64,000 nt of DNA from the human T2T-CHM13v2.0 reference genome, Homo sapiens (GCF_009914755.1 NC_060925.1); one strand, 5' to 3'. Positions 3,771 through 56,612 are shown, counted from the stretch's first letter. Numbers and translations: made by a program. Notes: generated from the sequence alone by a model not told the origin.

Positions 3771-3962
<192 letters not shown>

Positions 3963-28622: not shown

Positions 28623-29462
<840 letters not shown>

Positions 29463-30115
29463 TCAGGCACATGAATCAGGACAAAGACTGGTGCAGGGAT
29501 CAGGGTCCCTTGGCCTGATCCTCAACAGAGATCTGGGGCTTGTGCATATATGTGAGGATAATGGAAATAGGGTGGAGAAAAACTTCTGAGAGTCCTTTCC
29601 ACAGGATCCCAGTGCATTATGTTATCAAAACCTGTTGGTGAAGTCCTAATTGGGTGACAGTTTGCTAGGGAGCATCTGGGGATATAGAGATTGATGAGAT
29701 GAAGGTGAAAGTTTGCATGAAAATTGGAACATTAGAACGGACTTCCTGTGAAGTGCTTGTGTATCCTCTACCTAAGTGTATTATTAGATGGAATCATGTC
29801 TGACTGGGAGCACTTCCCATTCCTAGTATTATAAAATCAAAGGTATGTAAGTTTGCCCTTCTGCAATCATTAATTGGGCATATTAAATGGGAACCTATAG
29901 AATTGCCTGAGCCCGCATAGCTTGTTAATTTGACACAGTGTCAGATGAATCCTGGTAGACAAAAAGAGATTACCACTTTAACTGCTGACATGTTAGAAGT
30001 TGGAGTGCTGGTACTAACAAATGTTCTGTACAAATGTCCCATGTGTGGCCCATGAAAAAGGGAAGTGGCTCATCAAGATTGCAGTAGATTTTCCAGGCTT
30101 GAATAAAGTAGTATT

Positions 30116-31013
<898 letters not shown>

Positions 31014-31014
31014 T

Positions 31015-31220
31015 AGAACAACTATTTCCATAGCGTTTGCTCTGTGTTAGTTATTGTAAGTAATCTAGTGATGATTTAAAATATAGGGAAGGATGTGCAT
31101 GGGTTATATGCAAATACTATGTCATTTTAAAAAAGATACTTCAGCCCCTTGAGATTTTAGTATCCCCTTAGGGAGGGGTCCTAGAACTAATTCCCCACAG
31201 ATACCCAGGGACACCTGTAT
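31015..31220. mobile_element. MER2 DNA transposon fragment
   Basis: gtaatctagtgatgatttaaaatatagggaaggatgtgcatgggttatatgcaaatactatgtcatttta...cccccacagatacccagggacacctgta. Confidence 0.75.
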
Positions 31221-31878
31221 CTGAAATTGCATTTCCACAGACTAGAGTCTATGGTAAAAAACCACAAGTGCTGCCTAATGGTGAGCACTTGAATTTTGGC
31301 CCAGAAAATTTCCAGATGGGACGGTATGGTATGTGTCATTTCGGAGACAATTATTGGGTCGCTATTTTGGGGGCATTAATTGAAAGTGCTCGTAGGACTG
31401 AAAGATATTAAATATTCTGAAGATCTGACATACCCATGATGTCTTGGGTGATGTCAGAGAAATACTAATGAGGAAGCTACTGCCCAGAAGAGCTGACTTT
31501 GTAATAAAATGGAAATAATTTATACAGGAACATGATACTGGAGGAATGCAAAGAGGTTTGCATCATATTCACAAGCAGGTAGGCTCATTACCTCTAGGAC
31601 CAACTTTGGAACCATATGAGGCGCTGCCAGATCCTATAGACATGTGTCTGGTGATGCCTCATGAACACCTCTCCACTGACCAATAAAAATCTCCTTGGTT
31701 TACATTAACACTTCTAAAGTAGACGGTCAGCATCCTGTTTGGAAAGGTCCCCACTGTAACCAACTGATGGTAAAATGAATTGAAGAGGTTGAGAACAAGT
31801 AAGCTCAGTGAGCTGAACTGCATGCTATTTTCCTTGCAGTGATGGAAGAATTAAACAATTAGAGCCCTGAAGTCTAGA

Positions 31879-33292
31879 TGTGTCCGGAATTGGTGGGCTC
31901 TTGGTCTCACTGACTTCAAGAATGAAGCCGTGGACCCTCGCGGTGAGTGTTACAGTTCTTAAAGGTGGCGTGTCCAGAGTTTTTTCCTTCTGATGTTCGG
32001 ATGTGTTCGGAGTTTCTTCCTTCTGGTGGGTTCGTGGTCTCGCTGGTGCAGGAGTGAAGCTGCAGACCTTCGCCACGAGTGTCACAGCTCTTAACGCGGC
32101 ACGTCTGGAGTTGTTTGTTTCTCAGGGTGGGTTTGTGGTCTTGCTGGCTTCAGGAGTGAAGCTGCAGACCCTTGCTCTCAATGTTACAGCTCATAAAGGC
32201 AGTGTGGACCCAAAGAGTGAGCAGCAGCAAGATTTATTGCAAAGAGCGAAAGAACAAAGCTTCCACAGTGTGGAAGGGGACCCACTTCGGTTGCCACTGC
32301 TGGCTTGGGCTGCCTGCTTTTATTCTCTTATCTGGCCCTACCCACATCCTGCTGATTGGTCCATTTTACAGAGAGCGGAGTGGTCTGTTTTGACAGGGCG
32401 CTGATTGGTGTGTTTACAATCCCTGAGCTAGACACAAAGGTTCTCCACGTCCCCACCAGATTAGTTAGATACAGAGTATCCACACAAAGGTTCTCCAAGG
32501 CCCCACCAGAGTAGCTGGATACAGAGTGTCCATTGGTGCACTCACAAACCCTGAGCTAGACACAGGGTGCTGATTGGTGTGTTTACAAACCTTGAGCTAG
32601 ATACAGAGTGCCGATTGGTGTATTTACAATCCCTGAGCTAGACATAAAGGTTCTCCACATCCCCACCAGACTCAGGAGCCCAGCTGGCTTCACCCAGTGG
32701 ATCCCGCACAGGGATGCTGTGCACCCGCACTCCTTGGCCCTTGGGTGGTCGATGGGACTGGGCACCATGGAGCAGAGGGTGGCGCTCGTTGGGGAGGCTC
32801 GGGCAGCACAGGAGCCCATGGAGGTGGTGCGAGGCTCAGGCATGGCGGGCTGCAGGTGCCGAGCCCTGCCCCGCGGGAAGGCAGCTAAGGCCCGGTGAGA
32901 AATCGAGCACAGTGCCGGTGGGCTGGCACTGCTGGGGGACCCAGTACACCCTCCGCAGCCGCTGGCCCAGGTGCTAAGTCCCTCATTGCCCGGGGCTGGC
33001 AGGGCCGGCCGGCTGCTCCGAGTGTGGAGCCCCCCAAGCCCACGCCCACCCAGAACTCCAGCTGGCCCGCAAGCGCCGGGTGCAGCCCCAGTTACCACTC
33101 GCGCCTCTCCGTCCACACCTCCCTGCAAGCTGAGGGAGCCGGCTCCAGCCTTGGCCAGCCCAGAAAGGGGCTCCCACAGTGCAGCGGTGGGCTGAAGGGC
33201 TCCTCAAGTGCCGCCAAAGTGGGAACCCAGGCAGAGGAGGTGCCGAGAGCGAGTGAGGGCTGTGAGGACTGCCAGCACGCTGTCACCTCTCA
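31879..33292 (-). mobile_element. Solo LTR12C (ERV9 LTR)
   Basis: Minus strand starts TGAGAGGTGACAGCGTGCTGGCAGTCCTCACAGCCC and ends CCCACCAATTCCGGACACA; CCAAT-containing internal repeats at 32350-32660. Confidence 0.93.
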
Positions 33293-33353
33293 CCTTGGCC
33301 AAGGATGTGGATCTCACCCTTTACTTTCTGCCTTAGAAGTAATCTTATTTCCT

Positions 33354-34268
<915 letters not shown>

Positions 34269-34904
34269 CATATATATTCTAATACCATCACTTTGGAGCT
34301 TAGGATTTCAACATAGGAATTTCCACAGGGACAGCAACATTCAGACCATAGCAAAGGCCTCCTGGAGGCTGCTGCCTCAACTTCATCAAAACTGCCGCTA
34401 AAGCCTCCTGGAGGCTGCTGCCTCAACTGCATCTTCAGCAGTCTAGGGTGTGTCAGCTCAGGGATAACAGAAGGCTGCCTTTCAAAGTTGTGTCTCAATA
34501 AGAAGGTCACCGGTTGTGGCTTGTAGAAAGTTTCTTATTAGTGTTCTTCAGATAACTATGAATGAAAGAATTCTAGGTGGTTGTTTGGTTTTCTAAATCT
34601 CATTTATGAAGAGTTTGCATTTCTTTTGTGATTTTGACACACACTGTGTGATGAAACAGAGTCCTTCTTCATGCTTGTAAGCTGTGGGTAAGGTAGTCCT
34701 ACGGGAATGGGCTTTTATAAGGACCCGTGGACACCCACTGCTTGGTTTCCTTTTAGGTCCGATTTCCTGTCTTCTAGGTTTCATGTTTCTCGTTGAAATT
34801 AAGGGTTGAGAATATAGGTAGGTGTATATTTATTTATCCCTCAATTCTGGAGAGAAGAAGATCTGTTTTCAAGGCATCTGAGCCTCAGAAACTCTACCTT
34901 GAAG

Positions 34905-35080
34905 TCAGTGGTTGTCAAATAAGGGCAATTTTGCAATGTCTGGAGAGAATTTTGATTGTCACAACTGGGGAGTGCTGCTGGCACCTCCTGGACTGAGACC
35001 AAGGATGCTGTGGAGCACCCTGAAACAAAGGTCAGCCCCCCAATGAAGAGTCATCTAGTCCCAAATGTCACTAGTACTGC
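34905..35080. mobile_element. MER20 DNA transposon
   Basis: cagtggttgtcaa...gcaatgtctggagagaattttgattgtcacaactgggg...aaggatgctg...ccaaatgtcactagt. Confidence 0.7.
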
Positions 35081-36099
35081 TGCTCCTGGGGTCAATTTTA
35101 CCTTCTCCCCTGCCACTGAGAAAGCTGAAGGAAGGATGAGAGCCCAGGCATTCAGCCAGACTCCTGGACATGTGGACCATGGAATTACCTGACTAAGGCT
35201 GCAGGTTTAAAAATGCCATCCAGCTTTAATTTTTGGAATGTAAGAAACAAGCATCATTAAGAGGAATTTATTTAAAGCATTTTCCTGGAACAAAATGATA
35301 TTTGTTTGGAGATACAGCTGCAGCCAGAGATGTTAAAACTTCTTTCCACAGTTTGGCATCTGTCTATGGGTTTGCATCATTCTCTTCTCTCGTTACCAAC
35401 TAGGGGTCTTTATTTCTTGTGGTCCCTGCGCCTTCCAGTTGCTCATGAGCTTCATGTCACAAAATCGAGGGTTGCAGAGAAAGATTGACCCCTTCATGCT
35501 GCCTCCAGCTTCCAGGAAGTACCATGTCTGTCCACGTCTGGCTAGGTAACTCTCTGGGCAGCTGCTGCCAGAATTATGTGGCTGAAATGAGGAAGAAGAA
35601 GCCCTTTCCTGAAAGAGGGGTTGTGCCAGGGGCCAAGGTGGAGTGTTCTATGTTCTAAGAGGACACTTTCTGAATCAGGCCCCTGAGTTGATGTTATGTC
35701 TCTTGACTGGGGAGTAATCACCAGGACTTTGGGGTTCCTAGAATTGGATTACAGTGTGATGGCTGTGTTTATGTCACAGTGGAGGCTGAGACATAGGAGT
35801 AGAGCTGAGAAACATCTGAGGCAATCTTGAAGCTGGCCTGGCAGCTGGACCGTGCAGGACTCTGGGGATGAGGAAAGGCTACCGCTGGGTAGGGCGGATG
35901 TGGACATTGCAAGCGTGGGTACTGTGGATGAAGACACGGCTGGACAGTGTAGGAGTGGGCACTGGGGATGAGCTGGGCAGTGCAGGTGGAAGGACCTGGG
36001 AGTGAGGAAAGGCTGCAGCCCCTGCACTGCTGCTGCCAGAGGTTCCCACCTAGCAGGAGGTGATTTGCATTCTTCTTGCAGTGCCTGTAACAGTGTATA

Positions 36100-36370
36100 C
36101 AGTTGTCCCTCAGTATCCTTGGGAGATCCTTCCAAGACTCCCAATCTGCAGATGTTCAAATACCTTATTTAAAACAAATTTTATTTGCATAGAACCCAAG
36201 CACATCTTCCCACATACTTGAAATCATCTATACCTGAAACAATGTAAATGCTGTGTAAATAGGTATTCTAGTTTTTTGCTTGTATTTTGTTTTGTTATTT
36301 TTATTGTGTTTATTTTTCCAAATATATTTGATCCAAACAAGGTTGTTTGAATCCCAGGATGCAGAAGACC
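36100..36370. mobile_element. MER2 DNA transposon
   Basis: cagttgtccctcagtatcc...atctgcagatgttcaaataccttat...aaatcatcta...acaatgtaaatgctgtgtaaatag. Confidence 0.75.
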
Positions 36371-37020
36371 AATAGAAACTGATTTCTGTGAGCAACAACA
36401 TAATGAGACTTATCAACCTGAGTACAACAGCAGGCATCACTGTAGTCCCTGCACTGGGCTGTGCGTGACTGCTGTGTAGTCCCTGCACTGGGCTGTGAGG
36501 AGGCACTGCATCCTCGGGTATTGTCCCTCTGTGATGGGGCCCAGTTTGCCGGAGTTCCACTGAGGCAGGACTCAGCACTAGGCAGTGAACAGATCCTGTT
36601 TCTGAGGTGTCTTCTACATGTTCTGCTGCCTCAGGGATGAGGAGCAACCTTGGCTCCACCTGTCTCCACCAATGTGTAAAGCCAATTTCCTACTGAAGGC
36701 AGGGAACACCACCACCTCCCACCTGCAGTCCCCGACCCTATGCAGTTTACACAGTGTCTCTTCATTCGTTAGTTGTCATGGTGAAGAAAGAAGTCAGTAG
36801 CAAAATGACCCTCTTATGGAATTATGAAATGGGGTTGTCATGGGGAACAGTGATCTGCAGGGGACCTGGGGACCTTGACACTAAGCAAGTGAGAAGGCAG
36901 CCAGCTGTCCTTTAACAGCTACTGTTTGTCCAGCATGCAGGTAAGTTAGTCCCAGTGACTCCAGTAGACCATGACGGTGATAATGCAAGAGGGGTGCTAA
37001 CTCGAAATAGTGGCTTTACA

Positions 37021-37720
<700 letters not shown>

Positions 37721-37852
37721 GAAATAGTGGCCTTACATGTGCTGCACTAAGAGCTTCACAGATACTCACCCAGACCAATGTTCAGAGACAGGGAGCATCC
37801 CCATGAGAAGTAGAGGAAGCTGAAGATGAGGAGCTGATCCCCTCACACTGTA

Positions 37853-38948
<1,096 letters not shown>

Positions 38949-41900
38949 GTTATTGAACGTGGAACCCAGGTATGGCTCAGACCTGGCCCAAAACTCAACT
39001 TCGGGGACATGCCCACTGACATTAACTTCCTGGCATTGCCCACCTGGCCTTAACTTCTCAGACATCCCTACTCGGCCTCAAACAGCTGATACTATTCACC
39101 TGATTTTAACCATCTGGTTTGACCCTCCCAGCCTTATACACAGAGCCTTCACAGCTGTCCTTTCACATTCTAGTCTTACGTAGGCGGCTATAGATTCCTG
39201 GCCTTAACCTCTGGCCTTACCCATGTGGCCTTAATCTTTTGGCCTTAATCCCCTGTCCTTACAAATGGAATGTTACCCACCTACCTTAACCTCTTCAACT
39301 TACACACCTGATGTTCACCACGTAACTTTATAGAGCTGGCCTTCACTTCCTGGCCTTATCTACCTGGCCTTAACCACTTGGCATTATTCACCTTCCGGCC
39401 CAACACACTAGGCCTTACTCACGTGGCCTTATTAAACATATGACCATACTCACCCACCTGGCCTCACCTAGCATGACTTAATCTTCAGGACTTATACCCA
39501 TCTGGTGTTAACCATGTACCTTTACTCAGCGGGGCTTCACCTCCAAACAGCACCCTCTCTGTCCCACTCATGTATAATTAGCCTCTTGTCATTTAGCTGG
39601 CTTACAGACTTGGCCTTGATCCTCCCAGAAGTTTCCCCATTGATTTACCAGCCTGATGTGTTAACCAAATAGTTTTTTATTCAGCTGGATTTAAACACCA
39701 ATTTTAACAACCTGGACTTACTCACCAGATGTTACTTAACTTGATGGCCTTAATCACCTTATCTTGTCCTCATAGTATTACTAATCTGGCTTTATCCACC
39801 TGGCCTTATGAAACTCCTGGCCTTACCCAGTCTTAATTTTCTGGCCTAAAAGAACCGGGCTTACCAACCTGGCCATAACCTCCTGCCTTTAACCACCTGT
39901 TTATAACCAGTTATTTAATTTGCTGGCCTCATTCTCTGGTCAGTATCCAACTGATCTTACCCATGAGGCCTTACACCCTGGCCTTACCCGCCTCATTTTA
40001 CTGCACGGGGCAGACCCCACTAGCCTTCCTCACCTGGCCTTCCCCTATGGGCCTTAACCTCATGGCCCTAACAACCTGGATTAGCCACCTAGTTTCCCCA
40101 CTTAGTCTTACTGACCATACATGACCCACATGGCCTTTATACTTAATTGACCCAAATGTCCTTAACCTTCTGGTTTTACCTACAGGCCTTAGCCCCTAGG
40201 CCTTACCCCACTGGATTTATCTCTCTAGGTTGATTCCTCTGGACTTATCCCCCTTCCATTATTCTCTAGATTTCCCCTGCCCAGTCTTAGACACCTTTCT
40301 TAACCCATCTGGAGTTAACCAACTGGCCTTAAACTCATGGCTTTACCAACCTGGATCACCAACTGAGCTTACCAACCTGCCCTTCCCGCCTGGCCTTATC
40401 CTTCCATTCTTAGTCACATGGACATCTTCCTGGCCTAAACTGCCTAGCTTTAACCTCTTAGCACTACCCAATTGGAGTTATCAATCCACCTTTAATCAGT
40501 AGGCCACTGGGTTGAGGCCTACTGATTAAAGGTGGGTTGACAACTCCAATCGGATAGTGCTAATCACCTGGACTTTTAAATTCCTTGGCATCCTGACTTG
40601 GTCTTACATCACCTTGGTCTTAACCTAGATCTACCCACCTGCCTCGTTAACCTCCTGGCCTTACTCATCCAGTATTACTCCTGTGACGTTATGCACCTGA
40701 CTTATACAACTGACCCTATTGGTATTAACCTCATGGTTTTACCAACCAGAATTACTGAGCTGATTTTGCCTACTCAACCTTACTCTGCTGGCCTTCAGAA
40801 TTTGTCTCAACCTTCTGGTCTGAGTCACCTGTCCTGGCTCTACCGGCCTTAATCTAGTGGCATTATCCTCTGTCCTTGCCCCAGGCCATACTTTCCTAGC
40901 CTTCACCTTTTGGCCTGACCACATGGCCTTATCCAGCTGACTTTATGCACTTGACCATTTAAGCCTCCTGGATTTACCTGCTAGGTGTTAGCCACCTGGC
41001 CTTACTAGACTTATACCCATATTCATCTGCCTGGCGTCACCAAGCATGACTTAATTTGCTGGTGTTATACTCATCTTGTGTTAACTAGCTAGCTTTATCC
41101 AGCTGGCTTTCAGCTCCTCACCTTACCCTCAGTGTCTTACCCATGTGGTATTAGCCTCCTGTCATAATTGAGGTAGCTTGCAGACTTGGCCTTAATCCTC
41201 CTGGGGGTTTCCTTATTGATTTACCAGCCTGGTGTTAACTAAATAGTTTTTTTAATTCATCTGGATTTAAACAACGTGGTTTCAAAAACCTGCCCTTCCT
41301 CACCAGACCATATTAACCTTACTGTCTTAATCACCTTATCCTCATGGTATTACCAATCTGGCTTAATCCATTTGGACTTAAATAATCGCCTAGCCTTACT
41401 CACTCAATCTTAATTTTCTGGACTGACATACCTGGCCTTACCCACCTCATTTTACCACCCTGGCCAGAACCTGTTAGCCTTCCCCACCTGGCCTAACCCT
41501 ATTTGCATTAACCGCATGGTCTTAAAACCTGGAGTAGCCACCGAGTGTTGCCATCTGGTCTTACTGACCATATATAACCCACATGGCCTTCACAATTGGT
41601 TTACACGGTGGTCCTTAACTTTCTGGTTTTATATACCTGGTCTTACCCCCTTGGCATAAGGCCCCTGGATTTACCTTTCTAGGTGTATTCCCCTAAACTG
41701 AGCCCTACCCTTATTCCCTAGATTTCCCCTCGTGTCCTCCTGTGACTGAGACACCTTGCATTACCCATTTGGACTTACCCAACTGGTCCTAACCTCACGG
41801 CCTTACCAACCTGGATAACCAACTTAGATTTTCTACCTGGACTTGCCACCTAGTGTTAAACTTCCATTCTTAGTCACATGGCCTTCATCCCCTTGCCTGA

Positions 41901-44900
41901 ACTACCTAGCTTTAACTTCTTAGCATTACATAATTGGAGTTACCACCTAGCTTTATCCAGTAGGCCTTAAACTGCTGGCCTAATCCACCTGGCCTTTTAA
42001 ATTACTTGGCTTCCGGACTTGGTCTTAACCTAGATTTACCCACCTGCCTTGTTAACCTCCCGGCCTTACTTACTCAGTGTTAATCCCCAGGTCTTACACA
42101 CTTGGCTTACCCACCTGGCCTTACCCTACTGGTGTTAATGTCATGGCTTTACCTACCAGAATTAGCCAATTGGTCTTACCAACCCAGACTGACCCAGCTG
42201 GTCTTCATAATTAGTCTCAACCTTCTGATCTTACTCACCTGTCCTAGCCCTACGTGCTTTAACATCGTGTCATTATCCTCTGGCTACCCCGGCTATACTT
42301 TCCTAGCCTTCACCTATTGGCCTTACCACATGGCCTTAACCACTTGGCCTTATTAACCTCCTGGCTTTATTCACTAGGCCATAACCACCACCTAGGCTAA
42401 TTAAACTTATAGCCATGCTCACCTGCCTTAGTCACCTGCCTGGCCTCACCAAGCATGACTTAATCTGCTGGCCTTATATCCATAAGGTGTTAACCAGATA
42501 GCTGTATTAAGCTGGCCATCACTTCTTCCCTTCCCCTCAGTGTCTTCTCCACCCAGTGTCATTATTTACCTGGCTTACCAACTTGGGCTTCATCCTAAGG
42601 CCTGGGTGTTTCCCTGTTGATTTACTGGCCTGGTGTTAACCAAATGGTTTCTTATTCAGCTGGATTTTAACACCTGGTTTTAATAACCTGGTTGTACTCA
42701 CCAGACTTTATTAATCTCATTGCCTTATCTTATCCTCATGGTATTATGAATCTGGCTTTACCCATCTGGCCTTACTAAATACTCATGGACATGCTCACCC
42801 AGTCTTAATGTCCTGGCCTAAGAGACCTATCCTTATCCACCTGGCCATAACTTCCCACCATTTTCCACCTATTCTTAACTACCTGGCTGTCCTCAATGCC
42901 CGTCAGTACCCACCTGATCTTACTGATGAGGCCTTACTCCCCTGCTGATACTCCCTGGCCTCACCCACCTCATTTTACTGGAATGGCCAGACCCCAGTAT
43001 TCTTAGCCTCCTGGGCTAACCCTATTGGCCTTATCCTTGTGTACTTAACAACCTGGAGTAAGCAACTAGTTTTCCCACCTGGTCTTACTGAGCATACATG
43101 ACCCACGTGGCCTTCATACTTGGTTTACACAACTGTTCTTAACCTTCTAGTTATATCTACCGGGACTTAACCCCCTGGATTTACCTCCCTAGGTTCACTC
43201 CCCTAGACTTAGGCCCCTTTACTTACTCCTCAGATATCTGCCCCCCTGGATGTAGACACTTTGCATTACCCATCTGGATTAGACTGGTCTTAACCTCATG
43301 GCCTTACCATCCAAGATTACCGACTTAGCTTACCTCCCTGGCCTTCCTCCCTGGCCTTAATGTTCCATTCTCACTCACATGGCCTTAACCTTCTGGCGTA
43401 AGGTGCCTAGCTTTAAACTCTTAGCTTTACCCACTTAAACTCAGCCACCTAGTTGTATTCAGGGAGGCCTTAACTTACTGGCCTTACCCATCTGGCCTTT
43501 TAAATAGCTTGGCTTCCTGACCCGGCCTAAGCCTCATGGTTTTGCCAACTTAGATTTACCCACCTGCCTTATGAACCTCCTGGCCTCACTCATTCAGTAT
43601 TAATCCCCTGGCCTTATGCACCTGGCTTACCCACCTGGCCTTACCCTACTGGCTTTAACATCATGTCCTTACCAACCAGAGTTATCCAACTGATCTTACC
43701 TACTCGGCCTTAACCAATTGGCCTTCACAATTAGTCTCAACCTTCTGGTCCTACTTAGCTGTCTCAGCCCTACTGGTCTTAATCTAGTGTCATTGTCTGC
43801 TGTCCCAGCCCCTGACTTTACTTTCCTGGCCTTCACCTATTGGCTGTATTTTCTTGGCCTTACCCACTTGGCCTTGTTCAACTACTGGCCTCACCCAGTA
43901 GGCCTTCTACAACTGACATGATCAACCTGACAGCCAGACTCACCTGCCATATTCACCTGCCTGGCCTAAGCCAGCATAATATGACTTAATCTGCTGGCCT
44001 CATACCCATCTGGTGTTGACTACATGGTTTTATTCAGCTGGCCTTCACCTCCTTGCCTTCCCTGCACTGTCTTGCCCACCTAGTATTAGTTTCCTGTCAT
44101 TATTTAGCTGGCTTGGCAACTTGGCATTAATCCTACTGGGAATTTATCCTTTGATTTACCAGCCTGGGGTTACCCAAATAGTCTTTTCTTTGGCTAAATT
44201 TAAGTGCCTGGTTTTAATGATCTGGCCTTACTCACCAGACTGTATTAACCTCGTTGCCTTAATTACCTTACCCTCATGGCATTATTAAACAACCTTCATC
44301 CATGTGGCCCTATGAAACTCCTGGCCTTACTGACCCAGGCTTAATTTCCTGGCCTGACTAATGGTCTTGACCTTATCTACCTGGCCATAACTTCTCGCCA
44401 TTATCCACCTGTTCTTACCCACCTGGCTTTAATTCGCTGGCCTCAGTCTGCTGTCAAGACCTACCTGGTCTTGCCCATGGCACCTTACTACCCTTTCTTT
44501 ACTCCCTGGCCTTACCTACTTCATTTTCTCACCCTTGCCAGAACCCATTAGCTTTCCACACCTGGCCTAAACCTATGGGCCTTAACCTTATAGTCTCAGC
44601 AACCTGGATTACCTACCTAGTTTTCCTACCTAGTCTTACTCATCATGGGTTTCATGCTTAGTTTACACAGCTGTCCTTAACCTTCTAGTTTTATTTACCA
44701 GGGCTTAGTCCCCGGTCTTATTTTTCTAATTTACCTCCCTAGGTTTCCTCCCCTGGACTTATTTCCCTGCCCTTATTACCAAGATTTCCCCCCACACCTG
44801 GACTTAACACACCTTACATTTCCCACTTGGACTTCCCCATCTGGCCTTAACCTCATGGCCTCAATAGCTTACCAACCTGGCCTTCTCACCTGGTCTTAGC

Positions 44901-47277
44901 CTTTCATTCTTAGTCACATGGCCTCAACCTCCTAGCCTAATCTGCCTAGCATTAACTTCTCAGCCTTACCCAGTTGGAGTTATCCACCTAGCTGTACTTG
45001 ATGGCCTTAATTTTACTGGCTTTACCCATCTGGCTTTTTCAATCGCTTGGCTTCCTGACCCAGTGTTAACATCATGGTTTTGCCAAAATAAATTTACCCA
45101 CCTGCATTATTAACCTCCTGACCTTACTCATTCAGCATTAATCTGCTGGCCTTATGCACCTGGTTTACCCACCTGGCCTTACCCTACTGGCCTTAACTTC
45201 ATGTCCTTACCAACCCGAATCACCCAACTGATTTTATCTACCCAGCCTTACCCATTTGGCCTTCACAATTAGTCCCAACTTCTGGTCTTGCTCACATCTC
45301 ACAGCCCTACTGGCCTTAACCTGGTGGCATTATGCCTAGTCCTGACCCATGACCTTACTTTCCCGGACCTCACCTATTGACCTTCCCATGTGGCCTTATT
45401 TATCTGGCCTTACCCACTAGGCCTTCCCCACCTGACCTTATTAACTTTAGGGCCATACTCACCTGCTCTCTTCACCCACTTGGCCTCAGCCATCATGACT
45501 TAATCTGTTGGCCTCATACCCTTCTGGTGTTGACTACCTGGTTTTATTCAGTTGGCCTTCACCTCCTCGCCTTCCCACACTGTCTTACACAACTAGCATT
45601 AGCCTTGGGTCATCGTTTGTCTGGCTAGGAGAATTGCCCTTAATCCTACTGGGTGTTTCCCCCATCGATTTCCCGGCCTGAGAAAAGTCTTTTTATTTGG
45701 CTGGTTTTAAACACCTGGTTTTAACAACCTGACTGCACTCGGCAGAACTTATTAAGCTCCTTGGCTTCATCATTTTATCTTATCCTCGTGGTATTACAAA
45801 CCTGGCATTATCTGTCTTTATTAACCTCCTGGCCATACTCACCAAGTCTTAATTTCCTGGCCAAAAAGTCCTTCCCTTACCCGCTTGGCCATAACTTCCC
45901 GCTCACCATTATTCACCTGTTCTTACCCACCTGGATTTAATTTCCTGGCCTCAATCTCTGGTCAAGACCCATCCCGCCTGATCTTGCCCATGAGGCCATA
46001 CTCAGCTGCCTAACTTACTCCCTGGCTTTATCCACCACATTTTACATCCCTGGTCAGATCCCATTAGCCTTCCCCACCTGGCCTAACCCTATGGGCCTTA
46101 ACCTCATGGCCCTAAAAACTTGGATTAGCCACGTAGTTTTCCCACCTCGTCTTACCAACCATACATGACCCACATGGGCTCCACACTTGGTTAACACAAC
46201 TGTCCTTAGCCTTCTGGTTTTACCTACCAGGACTTAACCCCCTGGATTTACCTCCCTAGGTTTACTTTCCTGGTCTTATCCCCCTGCTTTTACTCCCTAG
46301 ATTTACCCCCAACTGCATGACCTCATCCCCACATTTTGACACCTTGCATTACCCACCTGGCCTTAATTTCATGGCCTTACCAACCTGGATGACCAACATA
46401 GCTTACCAACCTGGCCTTCCTGCCTTGTTTTAAGCTTTTGTTTTTACTCTCATGGCCTTAACCTCCTGGCCTAATCTGCCTAGCTTTAACCTCTTAGCAT
46501 TATCCAGGTGGAGTTAGCCACCTAGCTCTATTCAGGGAGGCCTTAACTTACTGGCTTTAGCCACCCAGCCTTTTCAATTGTTTAGCTTCCTAACCATCTT
46601 AACCTCATGGTTTTGCTAACTGAGATTTACCCACCTCCCTTATGAACCTCCTGGCCTTACTCATCCAGTATGAATCTCCTGGCCTTATGTACCTAGCATA
46701 CTCACCTGACCTTACCCTACTGGCATTAATGTCCTGTCCTTACCAATCTGAATCACCCAACTGATCTTACCTCCTCAGCCTTACCCACTTACCTAAGCCT
46801 TACCTTACCCATTAATTTGCCTTAACAATTAGTCTCAATGTTCGATTCTTCCTTCCTCAATTGCCCCAGCCCTACTGGTCTTAACCTGGTGTCATATCCT
46901 CTGTCCCAAACCTTGGCTTTCCTTTCCTGGCCTTCACCTGGTGGCATTCCCACATGGCCTTATTTACCTGGCCTTACCCACTAGGCCTTCCCCACCTGAC
47001 CTTATTAAGCTTAGGGCCATACTCATCTGCCCTCTTCACCTGCTTGGCCTCAGCCAGCATGGGTTAATCTGCTGGCCTTATACCCTTCTAGTATTGACCA
47101 ACTGGTTTTATTCAGCTGGTCTTCACCTCCTCACTTTCCCCACACTGTCTTACCTACCTAGCATTAGCCTTGGGTCATCATTTGTCTGATTTGGCGACTT
47201 GCCCTTAATCCTACAGGGTGTTTCTTCCGTTGATTTCCGAGCGTGGGTCTTTTATTCAGCGGGATTTAAACACTTGT

Positions 47278-47604
<327 letters not shown>

Positions 47605-49637
47605 TTAAACACCTGGTTTTAACAACCTGACTGCACTCAGCAGAACTTATTAAGCTCTTTGGCTTCATCACTCATCTTATCCTCATGCTATTACAAACCT
47701 GGCATTATCTATCTGGCTTTATTAACCTCCTGGCCATACTCACCGAGTCTTAATTTCATGGCCTAAAAGTTCTGCCCCTACACACCTGGCCAGAACTTCC
47801 CGCTCGCCATTATCCACCTGTTCTTACCCATCTAGCTTCAATTTGCTGGCCTTGATCTCTGGTCAAGACCCACGTGATCTTGCCCATGAGGCCTTACTCC
47901 ACTGCCGTTACTCCCTGTCCTTGCCCACCTTGTTTTACAGCCCTGGCCGTGCTCCATTAGCCTTTCTCACCTGGCCTAAACCTATGGGCCTTAACCTCAT
48001 GGCCCTAACAACCTGGATTAGCCACCCAGCTTTCCCATCTAGTCTCAACAACCATACATGACCCACATGGCCTTCACACTTGGTTTACACAACTGTCCTT
48101 AGCCTTCTGGTTTTATCTACCAGGACTTAAACCACTGGATTTACCTCCCTAGGTTTACTTCCCTGGACTTATCCCCCCTTGCCCTTATTCCCCAGATTTA
48201 CCACTGCTCCCTCACCCCATCCCCCAGACTTAGACACCCCCCATTAGCCACCTGGACTTACCCACCTGGCCTTAACTTTATGGCCTTACCCACCTAGATG
48301 ACCGATATAGCTTACTAACCTGGCATTCCCACCTGGCCTTAACCTTTTGTTCTAACTCACATGGCTTTAACCTCCTGAACTAACCTGCCTAGCTTTAACC
48401 TCTTACTATTACCCAGGTGGAGCTATCTACCTACCCATATTTAGGGAGGCCTTAACTTACTGGCATTACCCACCCAGGCTTTTCAATCACTTGGCTTCCT
48501 GACCCAGTCTTAACCTTATGGTTTTGCCAACTTATATTTAACCACCTGCCTTATAAACCTCCTGGCCTTTTGCATTCAGTATGAATTCCCTGGCCTTATG
48601 CACCTGCCTTACCCACCTGTCCATACCCCACTGGTGTTAAGATCGTGTCTTAACCAACCAGTAGTACCCAACTGATCTTACCTTCAAAACCTTCCAGTTG
48701 CCATTCATAATTCATCTCACTCTCTGGTCTTTTCTGTTCTAGTGCTACTGGCCTCAAGCTGGTATCATTATCCTCTGGACTTACCGCTGGCCTTAGTTTA
48801 CTGGCTTTTACCTATTGTTCTTACCACATGGCCTTATCTACATGGCCTTAGCTACTAGTCCTTAGCCCCCTGGCCTTACTTCCTTGGCCTTACCCATCTA
48901 TTTTTATATTCCTGTCTTTATGCACCTGTCTCTACTTACCTGGATTTACAAAACTGGCCTTTCCATCTTTCCGTTAATGTCCTGGATGTGACCTCCTAGC
49001 CTTCACCATGAAGACGTACACACCTAGTGCTAGCTACCTAGCTTCACACAGCTATCATTAGGGACCCGGGCTTGCTTCCTGCATTAACCTTTTGATGTTA
49101 ATATCCTTGCATTGAACTCTGGCTTTAGCACTGGGTCTTTATGTTTCTGCCTTGTCAATCTCCAGGCCTTACTCATCAGATACTATCATCTTGTTTTTTA
49201 CCACCTGGCTTTCAATTATTGGCTTCATCAACCTCGTGGCCTCACATATTACTAATGTCCTGGCCTAACCTGGTTTTATCCATCTGTCCTTAATGTAATG
49301 GTCTACCCCTGTGACTTTATACTGCGCTAAACCCCAGGGCCTCAGCTTCATGGCTTTACCTTTTTTGTCTTACCTACATGGATATGTCCACCTGGATTTA
49401 CCAACCTGGACTTATCAACCTGGACTTACCGCCTGGACTTTACCTTCTGAGTTAGCCAACTTGCCGTTATTAATATTATGGCCTTATCCACCTTGGTCTC
49501 AACTTCCTGGCCTGAAGTAAATGGGCTTAGCCATCTGCCCATAACCTCTTGATCTCACGTATCAGGCCTTATGCCCCTGCCCTTGACTACATCTCTGAAT
49601 CCCCCACCACCACCTTCTGCCTTACTTTCCTACTCTC

Positions 49638-49639
<2 letters not shown>

Positions 49640-49671
<32 letters not shown>

Positions 49672-49948
49672 ATGGAGTTTCACTCTTGTCGCCCACGCTG
49701 GAGTGCAATGGCACGATCTCAGCTTACCACAACCTCCACCCCCAGTTTCAAGCGATTCTCCTGCCTCAGCCTCCTGAGTAGCTGGGATTACAGGCATGCG
49801 CCACCACACCCAGCTAATTTTGTATTTTTAGTAGAGACGGAGTTTCTCCATGTTGGTCAGGCTGGTCCCCAACTCCCGATCTCAGGTGATCTGCCTGCCT
49901 CGGCCTGCCAAAGTGCTAGGATTACAGGCGTGAGCCACCGCGCCCGGC
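49640..49948 (-). mobile_element. AluSp-like with a (TG)n microsatellite tail (49640-49668)
   Basis: tttctccatgttggtcaggctgg; TG tract in place of poly-T. Confidence 0.88.
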
Positions 49949-52044
49949 CGACCTTTCTACTCTTTACCCCTAGCCCGTACCCACCTGGCCTTAAGCTTCT
50001 GGCTTTACCCACTCGGTTCTCTATGCCTGGACTTACGAGCTCCCTCATTTTACCCGGTCTTAACCTAAAGGCCCTCCCCACCTGACATATCCACCTGAGT
50101 TAGTCACTATTTTTTATTCACCTAACCTTAATCTATTGGCCTTAACCACCCAATCTTACCCACCTGGCCTTATCTACCTGGCCTTATCCACCTGGGCGTA
50201 ATCTTCTTGACATACATACCTAGTATTTTGTCACTGGCCTTACACTTCTAGCCTTAACCCACAGGTCTTACCCCCTGACCTACCCAACTGGTCTTATTAG
50301 TCTTCTGGCCTCAACCCACTTTGCTTACATACCTAGCTAACACACCTGGCCTTACCCACCTAGGCTTAATTTCCTGTCACTACCCACCTGTCCTTATGTC
50401 CCTGGCCTTCCCATGTGGCAGTAACCTCATGGCCTGAACTCCTGGCCATGGCTTCCTGGCCTTACACTCATGGCCTCACCCTGACGGCATTTCTCCCTGT
50501 ACCTACCCCATGCCTTACTTAACTGAACTTACACACCTCACCTTATTAACCTCCTGGCCATACTGACCTATTTTTAATCTACTGGCCTTCCACACATTGC
50601 TTATACCTCTGGCCTGCCCTCTTGGCTTATCCACTTGGGCTCAATCTCCTAGCCTTGTGGTCCTGTCCTGACCCTGTAGCATTAGCCCCTAGGGTTATCC
50701 CTTGGACATTATTATCTGGACGTGGGCTACTGGACTTAGCTTGACGTTTTAACCTCCTTACCTTAACTGTCTGACCCACCTGGTGTTAGCCTATTGGCTG
50801 TTGTCAGTTGACTTACCCACCTGGTCTTAATTTTCTGGCCTTATCCTGCTGGCCTTAGCCAGCTGGTGTTTAATTTCTTACTTTTATGCTCCTGGATTTA
50901 AATTCTGGTTTTACTCACCTGGCTTACCCACATGGCCTTACGTATGTGGCTTGACCACCTGGTGTTACCAGCCAGGCCTTATCTGTGAGCCCATACTCAC
51001 CTTGCTTTAATCTCATGTTCGTACTCTGTGACCTTACCCATCTTACCCATCTTGGCCTTACCCATCTTGCATTACCCAACTTACTTTATGCCCCTGGCCT
51101 TCCCTAACCCCACCAGCCTTATCTACTTGACCAGTTGCTACTGGCCTTGATGTCATGTCTGTACAAATGAGGATCACCCTCCTAGATTTCCCAAGTAGTC
51201 TAACCCGTCATGCCTTAACCGCTGGCCTTCATGCCTGGCCATAACATTCTAGTGTTACCCACCTGGATTCATCTCCCTGCCCATAACTACATGGCTATAA
51301 TGTCATGTGCTGCCGCCCTGGCCATCCCCCGTAGCCCTTAACCCATGGTGCTTATCATTCTTGGTGTAGGCCTCTGGCATTCCCCTATCCTTACCCACCC
51401 AGCAGCCTTACTTTCCTGGCCTTAACTAACTGGCCTTACCCACCTGCCCATACCCACTTGGTCGTACCCACTTGGCCTTAGCTCCTTTGCCTTCTCTTCT
51501 TACCCTTACCTTACCTGGCCCACCTCCAGACCTTTACAGCCTGGCCTTGAACGCCCAGCATTAATCTCATGGCCTGTGCCCTTTGCCTTAGCCTCCTGGC
51601 TTTGCACACCTGACCCTAACCTCTTGTCCTTAAATAACCAGATGTAAATTACCTAGTGTTACTTAGCTGGTCTTAACCTCACGGCCTTACCCACCTTGTC
51701 TACCAATCTGGCTGTAATTCTTTGGCCTTGTCCCCTTTGCCTACACCCCTGGCCTCCCCCTGGCCTTACTTTCCTGGGCTAAGCCACCTGGTCTTATTAA
51801 CCTCCTGGCATTACTCACCTGGTCATAATCTTATGGCCTTATGCAGTTGGCCTTAATTTTCTACCCTTATCCCTGTGGCCTCAGCCATTTAATTTTAACC
51901 CAATGGCCTTACCCCAGCCTCAGTCTAGTTGGCTTAATCCCCATGGCTTTACCCTCCCTGCGTCATCTCCCTGGTCTTATCCACCTAGCCTTGTCTGTCT
52001 GCTACTACCCACTTGCTTTTACCCAGCTGGCTTATCAGCCTTAA

Positions 52045-52576
<532 letters not shown>

Positions 52577-52663
52577 GTCTTGAAAAACAAACAAAAGTGG
52601 CTTTCCACAGCTTAGGTTAACTTCCTGCCCCTGCCTACCTAGTCTTGCCCATCTAATCGTATC

Positions 52664-52900
52664 CTGTGTCTATCCGGGTTCTCCAAAGAAACAGAGCCAG
52701 TGAGAGATATGTAATATGTATGAAAGATCTGTTTCAAAGAATTAGTCTATGTGATTGGGTGGGGCTAGCATGTCTCAAAACTTGATGCCGATGTCTTAAA
52801 GCAGAATTCCTTGTTCCGGAAACCTCAGTTTTTGGTCTTAAAACCTTCAACTGGTTAGGTGAGCCAAACTGACATTATTGAGATAATGTGACGTGTAACT
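52664..52900. mobile_element. MLT2-type LTR fragment
   Basis: gggttctccaaagaaacagagccag...aaagaattagtctatgtgattg...gcagaattccttgttccggaaacctcagtttttggtcttaaaaccttcaactgg. Confidence 0.7.
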
Positions 52901-53059
52901 ATACATCTATATACACACATACAAATACATGTGAAATTACTTATATGTAAACCAGTAAATATATGTAAAAGGATAAATATATAATCAGTGCCTAGCACAT
53001 AGTGGGTGATCAAAAAAATCTGCTATACCCTCATGGAGTGGTTTCTGCCAATATTCCCA

Positions 53060-56612
<3,553 letters not shown>

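What the first reader, a model, noticed from the sequence alone, without database searches (positions are those of the whole stretch)
38975..52660. ~13.7 kb degenerate 14-bp tandem array downstream of GNPAT, not a satellite family I recognise
Seen: outside three Alu insertions the whole interval is built from diverged copies of CTGGCCTTACCCAC / CTGGCCTTAACCTC (exact phase at 51430-51485 and ~50161-50195). That is on the order of 900 monomers by length/14. The + strand is C/T-rich, G-poor and CpG-poor, and the monomer orientation is uniform except for one short inversion. Inference: an old, large, interstitial array in a gene-dense euchromatic interval is unusual, and it may be too diverged for standard repeat maskers. 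It could be a multivalent protein-binding platform (the minus strand reads TAAGGCCAG, close to the NR5A-type YCAAGGYCA site; zinc-finger arrays are also candidates), a repetitive lncRNA template, or an R-loop/G-skew element.
Basis: partly seen in the sequence, partly recalled or inferred. Interest (0 to 1): 0.85.

Follow-up and report, generated by a model that had tools for sequence, protein, structure and literature searches.

The report
Ancient decayed 14-bp repeat array family
The 13-kb stretch downstream of GNPAT is a real but very old and decayed array of about 890 copies of a 14-base unit, the largest member of a small family of related loci on five chromosomes, and nothing I could test suggests it does anything today.

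Summary
Window 38,975-52,045, plus a remnant to about 52,660, is a uniformly oriented, degenerate 14-bp tandem array. It holds about 887 monomers that are 69% identical to CTGGCCTTACCCAC, and standard TRF settings flag only 3.3% of it. Positions 39,332-48,896 also carry a ~1.5-kb higher-order repeat of 6.6 units that are 68-82% alike.

The array is not an orphan. It sits at the same place in an old low-copy paralogous block (U-A-B-array-C-C'). Other copies lie on chr4q, chr13q (inside the TFDP1 span), chr2q31 and chr3q25 (two loci), at JC distance 0.28-0.49.

At distance about 0.10, after Alus had already inserted, chr1 sequence from 36,249 to about 48,370 was copied into another old paralog. 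That copy now exists twice, at chr3:162.85 Mb (19.5 kb) and chr2:187.47 Mb (6 kb).

The array has diverged as fast as or faster than its flanks. Decay at C and G positions is mainly C>T and G>A. There are no long ORFs, no Rfam match, no RefSeq transcript and no RefSeq regulatory feature. The proposed NR5A site occurs 4 times in ~887 monomers, and G4 motifs are not enriched.

Best reading: a neutral relic minisatellite enlarged by unequal exchange, which later served as substrate for ectopic exchange. I could not check Dfam or other species.

The parts
33653..36097 (+). Upstream flank ('B' and a piece further upstream) of the old paralogous unit. It is interrupted by an Alu at 34,060-34,270.
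   Evidence: Collinear with chr4 (minus strand) at 68-72% BLAST identity, and with chr13 for 34,510-35,567. JC K is 0.32 to chr4 and 0.48 to chr13.
36096..36371 (+). Interspersed repeat inserted into B in the chr1 lineage. By recall it looks like a Tigger-type MITE. The 5' end of the segment copied to chr2/chr3 lies inside it, at 36,249.
   Evidence: Dispersed copies span the breakpoint: 39 matches scored out of 407 candidates. chr4 is a precise empty site, with chr1 36,097|36,371 matching chr4rc 10,044|10,046. The chr2 and chr3 copies start at 36,249.
36373..37018 (+). Last part of flank B, shared with chr4 (old copy) and with chr2 and chr3 (young copies).
   Evidence: Substitution identity is 70.9% to chr4 and 90.5-90.7% to chr2 and chr3. 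The only genome-wide matches are those three loci.
37019..37720 (.). Alu-containing insertion specific to chr1, younger than the copy to chr2/chr3.
   Evidence: Alignments to chr2 and chr3 resume at 37,721 and overlap by 15-17 bases on the paralog side, the mark of a target-site duplication. Masked at 37,018-37,245 and 37,421-37,730.
37721..38974 (.). Sequence between flank B and the array. It holds Alus at 38,063-38,604 and an interspersed repeat at about 38,734-38,960. It is shared in place with chr3. chr2 keeps only 37,721-37,765.
   Evidence: One contiguous alignment, 37,721-38,778 to chr3, with 89.1% substitution identity. At least 1,206 candidate copies of the repeat.
38975..39331 (+). 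5' part of the 14-bp array, without the higher-order repeat.
   Evidence: Its ortholog on chr3 is 88% identical.
39332..48896 (+). Higher-order-repeat zone. It holds 6.6 units of about 1.45-1.55 kb, each about 108 monomers. A chr1-specific Alu lies at 47,283-47,604.
   Evidence: nhmmer unit map. Units are 68-82% identical within chr1. The Alu is absent from the orthologous chr2 and chr3 units.
48897..52045 (+). 3' part of the 14-bp array, without the higher-order repeat and unique to chr1. An Alu lies at 49,631-49,954, with (TG)15 at 49,640-49,669.
   Evidence: Only monomer-level similarity to the rest of the array. Only short matches elsewhere in the genome. 70.9% identity to the monomer consensus.
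52046..52590 (.). An Alu with a second Alu inserted into it, both sitting inside the end of the array.
   Evidence: Read directly. Masked at 52,194-52,460.
52591..52660 (+). Last remnant of the array beyond the Alus.
   Evidence: Read directly.
52663..53026 (+). Downstream flank C' of the old unit. It contains an old LTR-like repeat (type named from recall).
   Evidence: The best genome-wide matches are chr3:162,797,360-162,797,722 (67%) and chr2:175,207,908-175,208,142 (68%), each lying downstream of a small array of the same monomer.

Best explanation
This is a relic minisatellite with no present function that I can detect.

Shown: a 14-bp array was already present at one site in a low-copy genomic block (order U-A-B-array-C-C'). 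That block was duplicated to at least six places long ago, at JC K about 0.3-0.5. In three old copies the array is 0.4-0.7 kb, on chr4 it is 4.5 kb, and on chr1 it is 12.4 kb net of Alus.

Shown: on chr1 a ~1.5-kb block of about 108 already diverged monomers was amplified in tandem to 6.6 units. It then decayed without homogenisation.

Shown: at K about 0.10, after Alus had entered the flank, chr1 sequence from 36,249 (inside an interspersed repeat) to about 48,370 (inside the array) was copied into a locus that was itself an old paralog. That locus now exists twice, on chr3 and on chr2.

Inferred: the original array arose by slippage and unequal exchange, and so did the higher-order repeat. 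The transfer was a homology-associated ectopic event (conversion or break-induced copying between paralogous arrays) rather than a random insertion. Since then everything has drifted neutrally with a GC-to-AT bias.

Dates are inference from recalled neutral distances. The old burst falls around the eutherian radiation, and the young transfer falls around the time New World and Old World monkeys split.
For: The array is real and uniform in orientation.

Higher-order units group by position across chromosomes and not by array. chr1 42,955, chr2 11,689 and chr3 20,923 are 89-91% identical. chr1 44,506, chr2 13,376 and chr3 22,635 are 86-90% identical. Units within chr1 are 68-82% identical.

Flank K for chr1/chr2/chr3 is 0.092-0.117 and array K is 0.107-0.196.

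In the monomer, positions T2, T7, T8 and A9 are kept at 0.81-0.86 (A13 only 0.57). C and G positions are kept at 0.46-0.74, and C>T or G>A is the commonest change at each of them except position 10 (C>A). CpG observed/expected is 0.16.

The old paralogs are collinear on both sides of the array. Each flank piece has only these loci as genome-wide matches:
- A: chr4 over the full length and chr13, with a shared embedded repeat.
- C: chr3:162.80 only.
- C': chr3:162.797 and chr2:175.208.
- U: chr2:187.468, chr13 and chr3:162.850, from 4 candidates in all.

Old K is 0.28-0.49.

chr1 as donor: the interspersed repeat is complete in chr1, chr4 is a precise empty site, and chr2 and chr3 hold only its last 122 bases at the junction.

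Alus at 38,063-38,604 are shared in place with chr3.

No function signal was found: no stop-free stretch above 178 aa, no Rfam match, no RefSeq feature, and no enrichment of the NR5A site, G4 motif or PRDM9 13-mer.
Against: No functional data of any kind could be consulted: no ChIP, RNA, methylation or population variation. 'No function' therefore rests on sequence and RefSeq annotation alone.

The G-rich strand carries 76 CAGGTG E-boxes, 76 GGTAAG (5'-splice-site-like) and 150 AGGCCA. Shuffles give 3.7, 9.2 and 2.9. A multivalent platform is therefore not excluded by motif content.

The elevated K in some array blocks (0.19-0.20) may partly reflect misalignment or non-orthologous units, so the rate comparison is rough.

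The paralogs were found through their arrays, so copies that lost the array would have been missed.

The 5' junction of the young transfer is not homologous, so simple gene conversion does not explain it without a further deletion.

Orthologs in other species were not examined. All dates come from recalled rates.
Confidence: 0.75

Rival explanations
1. The block U-A-B-array-C-C' is an uncharacterised, low-copy, very large mobile element, or a set of retrocopies of one long RNA. On this reading the 14-bp array is its internal VNTR, which expanded after insertion on chr1 and chr4.
For: At least six dispersed copies of similar age, K 0.28-0.49, lie on different chromosomes with the array always at the same internal position. 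Array length varies from 0.4 to 13 kb between copies, as internal VNTRs of mobile elements do.
Against: Collinear homology between chr4 and the chr3/chr2 block spans at least 18 kb of chr4, from chr4rc 29,085 to 47,163. By recall that is longer than the usual mammalian elements. The copies contain other families' repeats nested at the same places. The 10 longest non-Alu stop-free stretches of the chr13 and chr4 copies gave no Pfam family above its cut-off.
Confidence: 0.12
2. The array is a working multivalent platform. On DNA it would bind E-box factors (ZEB, SNAI or bHLH classes) or a KRAB zinc-finger protein. As a G-rich minus-strand RNA it would carry many U1-type 5'-splice-site-like motifs.
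For: Motif densities on the minus strand are far above shuffles: CAGGTG 76 against 3.7 and GGTAAG 76 against 9.2. The array is retained at all paralogs found.
Against: The motifs follow automatically from the monomer sequence. The array has diverged at or above the flank rate. The decay pattern follows base identity and not motif boundaries. There is no annotated transcript or regulatory element. Retention is biased by how the paralogs were found.
Confidence: 0.07
3. The chr3 and chr2 copies arose by ordinary duplicative transposition to a random site, and the nearby old paralog sequence is coincidence.
For: The 5' junction (old U sequence joined to the middle of the chr1 interspersed repeat) is non-homologous. 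That is typical of end-joining at segmental duplication borders.
Against: The sequence directly upstream of the junction is the U part of the old unit. It has only 4 candidate matches genome-wide and is collinear with chr2:175.2, chr13 and chr4. By my rough estimate, a random landing inside one of about six such loci of about 15 kb in 3.1 Gb has a chance near 3 in 100,000.
Confidence: 0.05

Closest known systems
Classical minisatellites (VNTR arrays of 10-100-bp units, G-rich on one strand)
   Same: A 14-bp unit in head-to-tail copies with one orientation, kb-scale length, strong purine/pyrimidine and G/C strand asymmetry, and an interstitial euchromatic site.
   Different: The copies are only about 69% like the consensus and standard TRF sees 3.3% of the array. 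It has a 1.5-kb higher-order layer. Present-day length variation is unknown. The PRDM9 13-mer is absent, at 0 against 1.5-2 in shuffles.
Higher-order-repeat satellites (alpha-satellite type organisation)
   Same: Two nested periods, with a multi-monomer block amplified in tandem.
   Different: Units are 68-82% alike, where by recall active HOR arrays have near-identical units. There is no homogenisation, because orthologous units on other chromosomes are closer than neighbours. It has only 6.6 units, is not centromeric, and belongs to a family of about seven loci.
Old interchromosomal segmental duplications and interlocus gene conversion between them
   Same: Multi-kb blocks shared between chromosomes, borders inside repeats, and a later exchange between paralogs.
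   Different: Identity is mostly below the 90% used to catalogue segmental duplications: 83-91% for the young set and 64-77% for the old set. No gene is carried. The exchanged tract is centred on a tandem array.
Internal VNTRs of mobile elements (for example the SVA VNTR)
   Same: A tandem array that travels together with fixed flanks and differs greatly in length between copies.
   Different: No element hallmarks were found, only a handful of copies exist, and the flanks hold other nested repeats.

Membership tests
Minisatellite / VNTR | Tandem head-to-tail copies of a 10-100-bp unit | tested here: met
   Lag-14 identity is 0.413 against 0.269 expected. About 887 monomers, with alignment score +4,706 against -635 for a shuffle.
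Minisatellite / VNTR | Length polymorphism between individuals | not testable with these tools
Minisatellite / VNTR | Strand asymmetry (G-rich against C-rich strand), as in classical minisatellites (feature recalled) | tested here: met
   GC skew is -0.22 to -0.44. C is 3,991 against G 1,869.
Satellite with higher-order repeats | A second, longer period made of a fixed run of monomers | tested here: met
   6.6 units of about 1.45-1.55 kb at 39,332-48,896.
Satellite with higher-order repeats | Units kept alike by homogenisation within the array | tested here: not met
   Units are 68-82% identical within chr1. Orthologous units on chr2 and chr3 are 86-91% identical.
Catalogued human satellite or repeat family (Dfam / RepBase) | A match to a library consensus | not testable with these tools
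   No repeat library was on hand. The RefSeq soft-mask covers only the Alus, but it also misses a repeat with at least 407 candidate copies. The monomer strings do not appear in the searched papers. The main text of the T2T repeat preprint contains none of 'GNPAT', '14 bp', '14bp', 'new satellite' or 'unmasked', and its supplements are closed.
Segmental duplication (catalogue definition, recalled: at least 1 kb and at least 90% identity) | Length of at least 1 kb shared between loci | tested here: met
   A 5.7-kb array block and more than 9 kb of flank between chr2 and chr3. About 12 kb of chr1 is represented on chr3.
Segmental duplication (catalogue definition, recalled: at least 1 kb and at least 90% identity) | At least 90% identity | tested here: not met
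   BLAST identity is 81-90%. Substitution-only identity is 82.7-91.4%. The old set is 64-77%.
Transposable element carrying an internal VNTR | Many copies, or defined termini with target-site duplications | tested here: inconclusive
   Flank pieces have only 2-4 paralogous matches genome-wide. The ends of the unit were not reached.
Transposable element carrying an internal VNTR | Remnants of element-encoded proteins | tested here: not met
   0 of the 10 longest non-Alu stop-free stretches from the chr13 and chr4 copies reached a Pfam cut-off. This covered 10 of 127 such pieces of 55 aa or more.
   4 and 0 exact sites in 12,425 bases and about 887 monomers. The consensus monomer differs from the motif in its 5' extension.
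R-loop / G-quadruplex-prone element | Sustained GC skew | tested here: met
R-loop / G-quadruplex-prone element | Clustered G-runs (canonical G4 motif) above chance | tested here: not met
   3 on the G-rich strand against 2.0 in 50 shuffles.
R-loop / G-quadruplex-prone element | Transcription through the element | not testable with these tools
   There is no annotated transcript and no expression data. The array lies 17.7 kb beyond the GNPAT 3' end and 23 kb beyond that of EXOC8.
Repeat-bearing lncRNA gene | An annotated or detectable transcript | tested here: not met
   RefSeq has no transcript in 38,975-52,660. Rfam gives 0 matches. Expression data were not available.

The most novel reading that the evidence does not exclude
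A degenerate interstitial minisatellite has acted, over roughly 100 million years, as the core of a recurrently duplicating and exchanging block. First a burst of at least six dispersed copies arose. Much later a 12-kb tract was copied from the chr1 array into another old copy on a different chromosome, and that copy was then duplicated again. If the array itself promotes the breaks and the homology search, this is a small non-genic 'core duplicon' driven by a tandem repeat. Alternatively the block is an undescribed giant mobile element with an internal VNTR.
Probability: 0.15. Interest if true: 0.55.

Novelty: new member of a known kind. Interest (0 to 1): 0.33.

Why it matters
It shows that a 13-kb tandem array can sit in a well-studied euchromatic interval while being almost invisible to standard tandem-repeat finders. 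It also shows that such an array can be traced through two rounds of duplication and one interchromosomal exchange.

For annotation, seven loci totalling about 45 kb could be labelled as one family. For genome evolution, it is a clean case in which a higher-order repeat formed and then simply decayed without concerted evolution. It is also a case in which a younger duplicate landed inside an older paralog.

It gives no reason to expect an effect on GNPAT or EXOC8.

Tried and rejected
Coding or structured RNA. No stop-free stretch exceeds 178 aa, and those present are low-complexity or Alu-derived. Rfam gives 0 matches at gathering score over 34,000-54,000. Rejected.

Motif readings. NR5A, ERR, G4 and the PRDM9 13-mer were counted and are not enriched. 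E-box, GGTAAG and AGGCCA are enriched only because they are part of the monomer.

Inversion. None found.

High-copy element. The flank pieces were searched genome-wide and are low-copy. The hits that are numerous belong to nested older repeats and Alus.

LTR pair. The LTR-like repeat inside A and the one in C' show no similarity to each other by blastn at E up to 1 or by nhmmer at E up to 10.

Other exact two-monomer matches. chr1:66.63 Mb, chr4:105.90 Mb and chr4:180.82 Mb showed little or no 14-bp period in their 3-kb loci and were dropped. Eight of 65 three-monomer pattern matches lie in unrelated tandem repeats or are chance, and the reversed control gave 4. Two of 90 profile hits (chrX:47,509,053 and chr15:57,299,357) were not followed up.

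Literature:
- 'GNPAT' + 'EXOC8' + 'tandem repeat': 0 papers.
- A general search on degenerate 14-bp repeats: 41 papers, 15 listed, none relevant by title or abstract start (listing only).
- Four monomer strings in either orientation: 1 paper, about TSG101 transcripts and unrelated by title (listing only).
- T2T repeat papers listed. In the main text of the preprint 10.1101/2021.07.12.451456, 'GNPAT', '14 bp', '14bp', 'new satellite' and 'unmasked' occur 0 times (passage search only). Its supplementary tables, which may list new repeats, are closed.

Not done:
- Any comparison with other species, because no mammalian genomes are on hand.
- A Dfam or RepeatMasker run.
- Naming the Alu subfamilies.
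- Finding the outer ends of the old unit.
- Working out the relation between the two chr3 loci, which lie 50 kb apart in opposite orientation.

Full report
1. THE OBSERVATION

Base identity at lag 14 is 0.413 against 0.269 expected from composition, with weaker echoes at 28, 41/42, 55/56 and 69. In 400-bp windows the excess starts at window 38,801, is strong from 39,201 and stops after window 51,601. It dips only at the Alus.

A wrap-around alignment to CTGGCCTTACCCAC gives 886.7 monomers over 12,408 non-Alu bases at 69.3% identity, with 344 insertions and 350 deletions. The first piece scores +4,706, and a shuffle of it scores -635.

TRF at a low threshold reports only islands of two to five copies. 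With standard parameters it covers 434 of 13,071 bases.

The + strand is C/T-rich (C 3,991, T 4,017, A 2,548, G 1,869), and CpG observed/expected is 0.16. GC skew is -0.22 to -0.44 in the 1-kb windows starting at 39,000-51,500.

I found no inverted block. The three Alu sites hold four Alus, since 52,046-52,590 is an Alu within an Alu.

2. THE SECOND PERIOD

BLAST self-alignments have offsets of about 1,454-1,560 bases and their multiples. Ungapped autocorrelation has local maxima near 1.5, 3.0, 4.6 and 6.2 kb.

nhmmer with one unit as query maps units at 39,332 (partial), 39,978, 41,432, 42,955, 44,506, 46,022 (split by an Alu at 47,283-47,604) and 47,915-48,896 (partial). In a 440-base shared stretch these units are 68-82% identical.

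From 48,897 to 52,045 only the 14-bp period remains. That part has no long match anywhere else in the genome.

3. YOUNG RELATIVES ON CHR2 AND CHR3

A 3.2-kb piece of the array finds long matches on two other chromosomes: chr3:162.85 Mb (90% over 968 bases) and chr2:187.47 Mb (82% over 1.9 kb). Periodicity profiles give arrays of about 19.5 kb on chr3 and about 6 kb on chr2, in the same orientation and with the same skew.

The higher-order units group by position across chromosomes and not by array. chr1 42,955, chr2 11,689 and chr3 20,923 are 89-91% identical. chr1 44,506, chr2 13,376 and chr3 22,635 are 86-90% identical. chr1 47,915 and chr3 28,217 are 87% identical. The higher-order repeat is therefore older than the spread to chr2 and chr3, and there has been no homogenisation since.

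The flank is shared too. 36,249-37,018 matches chr2 and chr3, and 37,721-38,778 and 38,902-40,072 match chr3. The second of these tracts carries the Alus at 38,063-38,604 in place, so the event is primate-age.

Substitution-only JC distances are 0.092-0.117 for flanks and 0.107-0.196 for array blocks. The Alus at 37,019-37,720 and 47,283-47,604 are absent from the chr2 and chr3 counterparts, so they are younger.

4. DIRECTION OF THE YOUNG EVENT

The shared tract starts at 36,249. That position lies inside an interspersed repeat occupying 36,096-36,371. Dispersed copies of the repeat run across the position (39 matches scored out of 407 candidates).

chr4 has the flanking sequence without the repeat, joined precisely: chr1 36,097|36,371 matches chr4rc 10,044|10,046. 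chr2 and chr3 have only the last 122 bases of the repeat, preceded by unrelated sequence.

chr1 is therefore the source.

At the 3' side the chr3 array ends at the equivalent of about 48,370. The chr2 array ends 9 bases earlier, against what I recognise from memory as the 3' part of an L1. chr3 has since grown by internal duplication, for example units 17,576 and 24,127 at 90%.

5. OLD RELATIVES

Pattern and profile searches find further arrays of the same monomer:
- chr4:106.805-106.809 Mb, 4.5 kb, opposite strand.
- chr2:175.207 Mb, 0.45 kb.
- chr13:112.868 Mb, 0.4 kb, within the TFDP1 span.
- chr3:162.802 Mb, 0.7 kb, opposite strand, 50 kb from the large chr3 array.

Of 65 matches to three core motifs spaced at 14 bp with up to 2 mismatches, 57 fall in these seven loci, and the reversed control gave 4. 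Of 90 profile hits, 88 do, but only 150 of about 1.1 million first-look candidates were scored.

The arrays of these old copies share only monomer-level similarity with chr1 (shown for chr4 by nhmmer; for the chr3 small array by BLAST). Their flanks, however, are collinear on both sides.

I call the pieces U, A, B, array, C and C'.
- chr4 has A, B, array and C.
- chr13 has U, A, B, array and C.
- chr2:175.2 has U, A, array and C'.
- chr3:162.80 has array, C and C'.
- chr1 has B, array and C'.

Each piece, searched genome-wide, finds only these loci:
- A matches chr4 over its full length at 74% and chr13 at 72%. Its middle 350 bases are a common LTR-like repeat that the three loci share in place.
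- C of chr13 matches only chr3:162.80.
- C' of chr1 matches chr3:162,797,360-162,797,722 and chr2:175,207,908-175,208,142.
- U matches only chr2:187.468, chr13 and chr3:162.850, from 4 candidates in all.

JC distances are 0.28-0.49. Collinear homology between chr4 and the chr3/chr2 block spans at least chr4rc 29,085-47,163. The 10 longest non-Alu stop-free stretches, out of 127 of at least 55 aa, gave no Pfam family above its cut-off.

I read this as an old burst of segmental duplication. A very large low-copy mobile element is not excluded.

6. THE ACCEPTOR OF THE YOUNG EVENT WAS ALREADY A PARALOG

The block upstream of the chr3 and chr2 junctions, which those two loci share at 87-91%, is the U part of the old unit. 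The chr1 tract therefore went into a locus that was already related to it.

That points to a homology-associated ectopic event between paralogous arrays, followed by duplication of the recipient between chr3 and chr2. The 5' junction itself is non-homologous, so either copying ended by end-joining or a later deletion trimmed it.

7. FUNCTION

Nothing I could test points to one.
- The array has diverged at least as fast as its flanks.
- Within the monomer, T2, T7, T8 and A9 are kept at 0.81-0.86 (A13 at 0.57). C and G positions are kept at 0.46-0.74, and C>T or G>A is the commonest change at each of them except position 10. This is the pattern of mutation bias and not of a protected motif.
- There are no ORFs of note, no Rfam match, and no RefSeq transcript, enhancer or silencer in the interval.
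- The NR5A-type site is present 4 times and the ERR-type site 0 times. Canonical G4 motifs number 3 against 2.0 in shuffles. The PRDM9 13-mer occurs 0 times against 1.5-2.0.
- The G-rich strand does carry 76 CAGGTG, 76 GGTAAG and 150 AGGCCA. These are consequences of the monomer sequence.

Functional genomics data were not available, so a binding or RNA role is unlikely but not excluded.

8. TIMING (INFERENCE, FROM RECALLED NEUTRAL DISTANCES)

- K of about 0.10 between the young copies, together with Alus shared in place, fits an event near the split of New World and Old World monkeys.
- K of about 0.3-0.5 between the old copies, and 18-32% difference between higher-order units, fit the time around the eutherian radiation.
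- The higher-order amplification is specific to the chr1 lineage, because chr4 lacks it.
- The 14-bp array itself predates the old burst, since it sits at the same position in every copy.

9. NOVELTY

I found no mention in print. I could not query Dfam or RepBase, and the supplements of the T2T repeat paper are closed.

The lack of soft-masking is weak evidence, because a repeat with at least 407 candidate copies next to the array is also unmasked.

In kind, this is a minisatellite with a decayed higher-order layer inside old segmental duplications. I rate it a new member of a known kind, of modest interest.

Noticed in passing
window 36,096-36,371: A complete interspersed repeat (Tigger-type MITE by recall) with at least 407 candidate copies genome-wide is not soft-masked in the RefSeq FASTA. 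chr4 preserves its precise empty site.
   Followed up: yes
window 52,046-52,590: An Alu with a second Alu of opposite orientation inserted into it, with a short direct repeat at the inner junctions. Both sit inside the last monomers of the array.
   Followed up: partly
L018-L020 (chr3:162,852,484-162,871,976): The chr3 array is 19.5 kb, longer than the roughly 9.4 kb of chr1 from which it derives. Two of its units (locus coordinates 17,576 and 24,127 of the joined chr3 stretch) are 90% identical, so it grew by internal multi-kb duplication after the transfer.
   Followed up: partly
L046 (chr3:162,797,360-162,802,300, minus strand): An old paralog with a 0.7-kb array, C and C' lies only 50 kb from the large chr3 array and in the opposite orientation. 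It falls within the spans of LINC01100 and IL12A-AS1. Whether it and the U block at 162.83-162.85 Mb are two halves of one rearranged old copy is open.
   Followed up: partly
L047/L037/L048 (chr13:112,862,001-112,872,000): The chr13 paralog lies inside the span of TFDP1 and is the most diverged copy (K 0.35-0.49). This fits a fast-evolving GC-rich subtelomeric setting.
   Followed up: no
L022 (chr2:187,475,300): The chr2 array ends against what looks, from memory, like the 3' part of an L1. That is 9 bases short of the point where the chr3 array ends.
   Followed up: partly
window 4,001-4,400: In the part of the window outside 34,001-58,400, this was the only 400-bp bin that passed the lag-13/14 excess filter (0.34 against 0.24). 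It lies in GNPAT next to the exon at 3,771-3,947.
   Followed up: no
chr2:174,813,739; chr16:60,766,088; chrX:51,880,407: Perfect or near-perfect tandem repeats with GGCCTTA at 14-bp spacing but a different remainder of the unit. They are unrelated to this family.
   Followed up: no
chrX:47,509,053 and chr15:57,299,357: Single weak hits of the array profile (E about 2-3e-4) outside the seven known loci.
   Followed up: no
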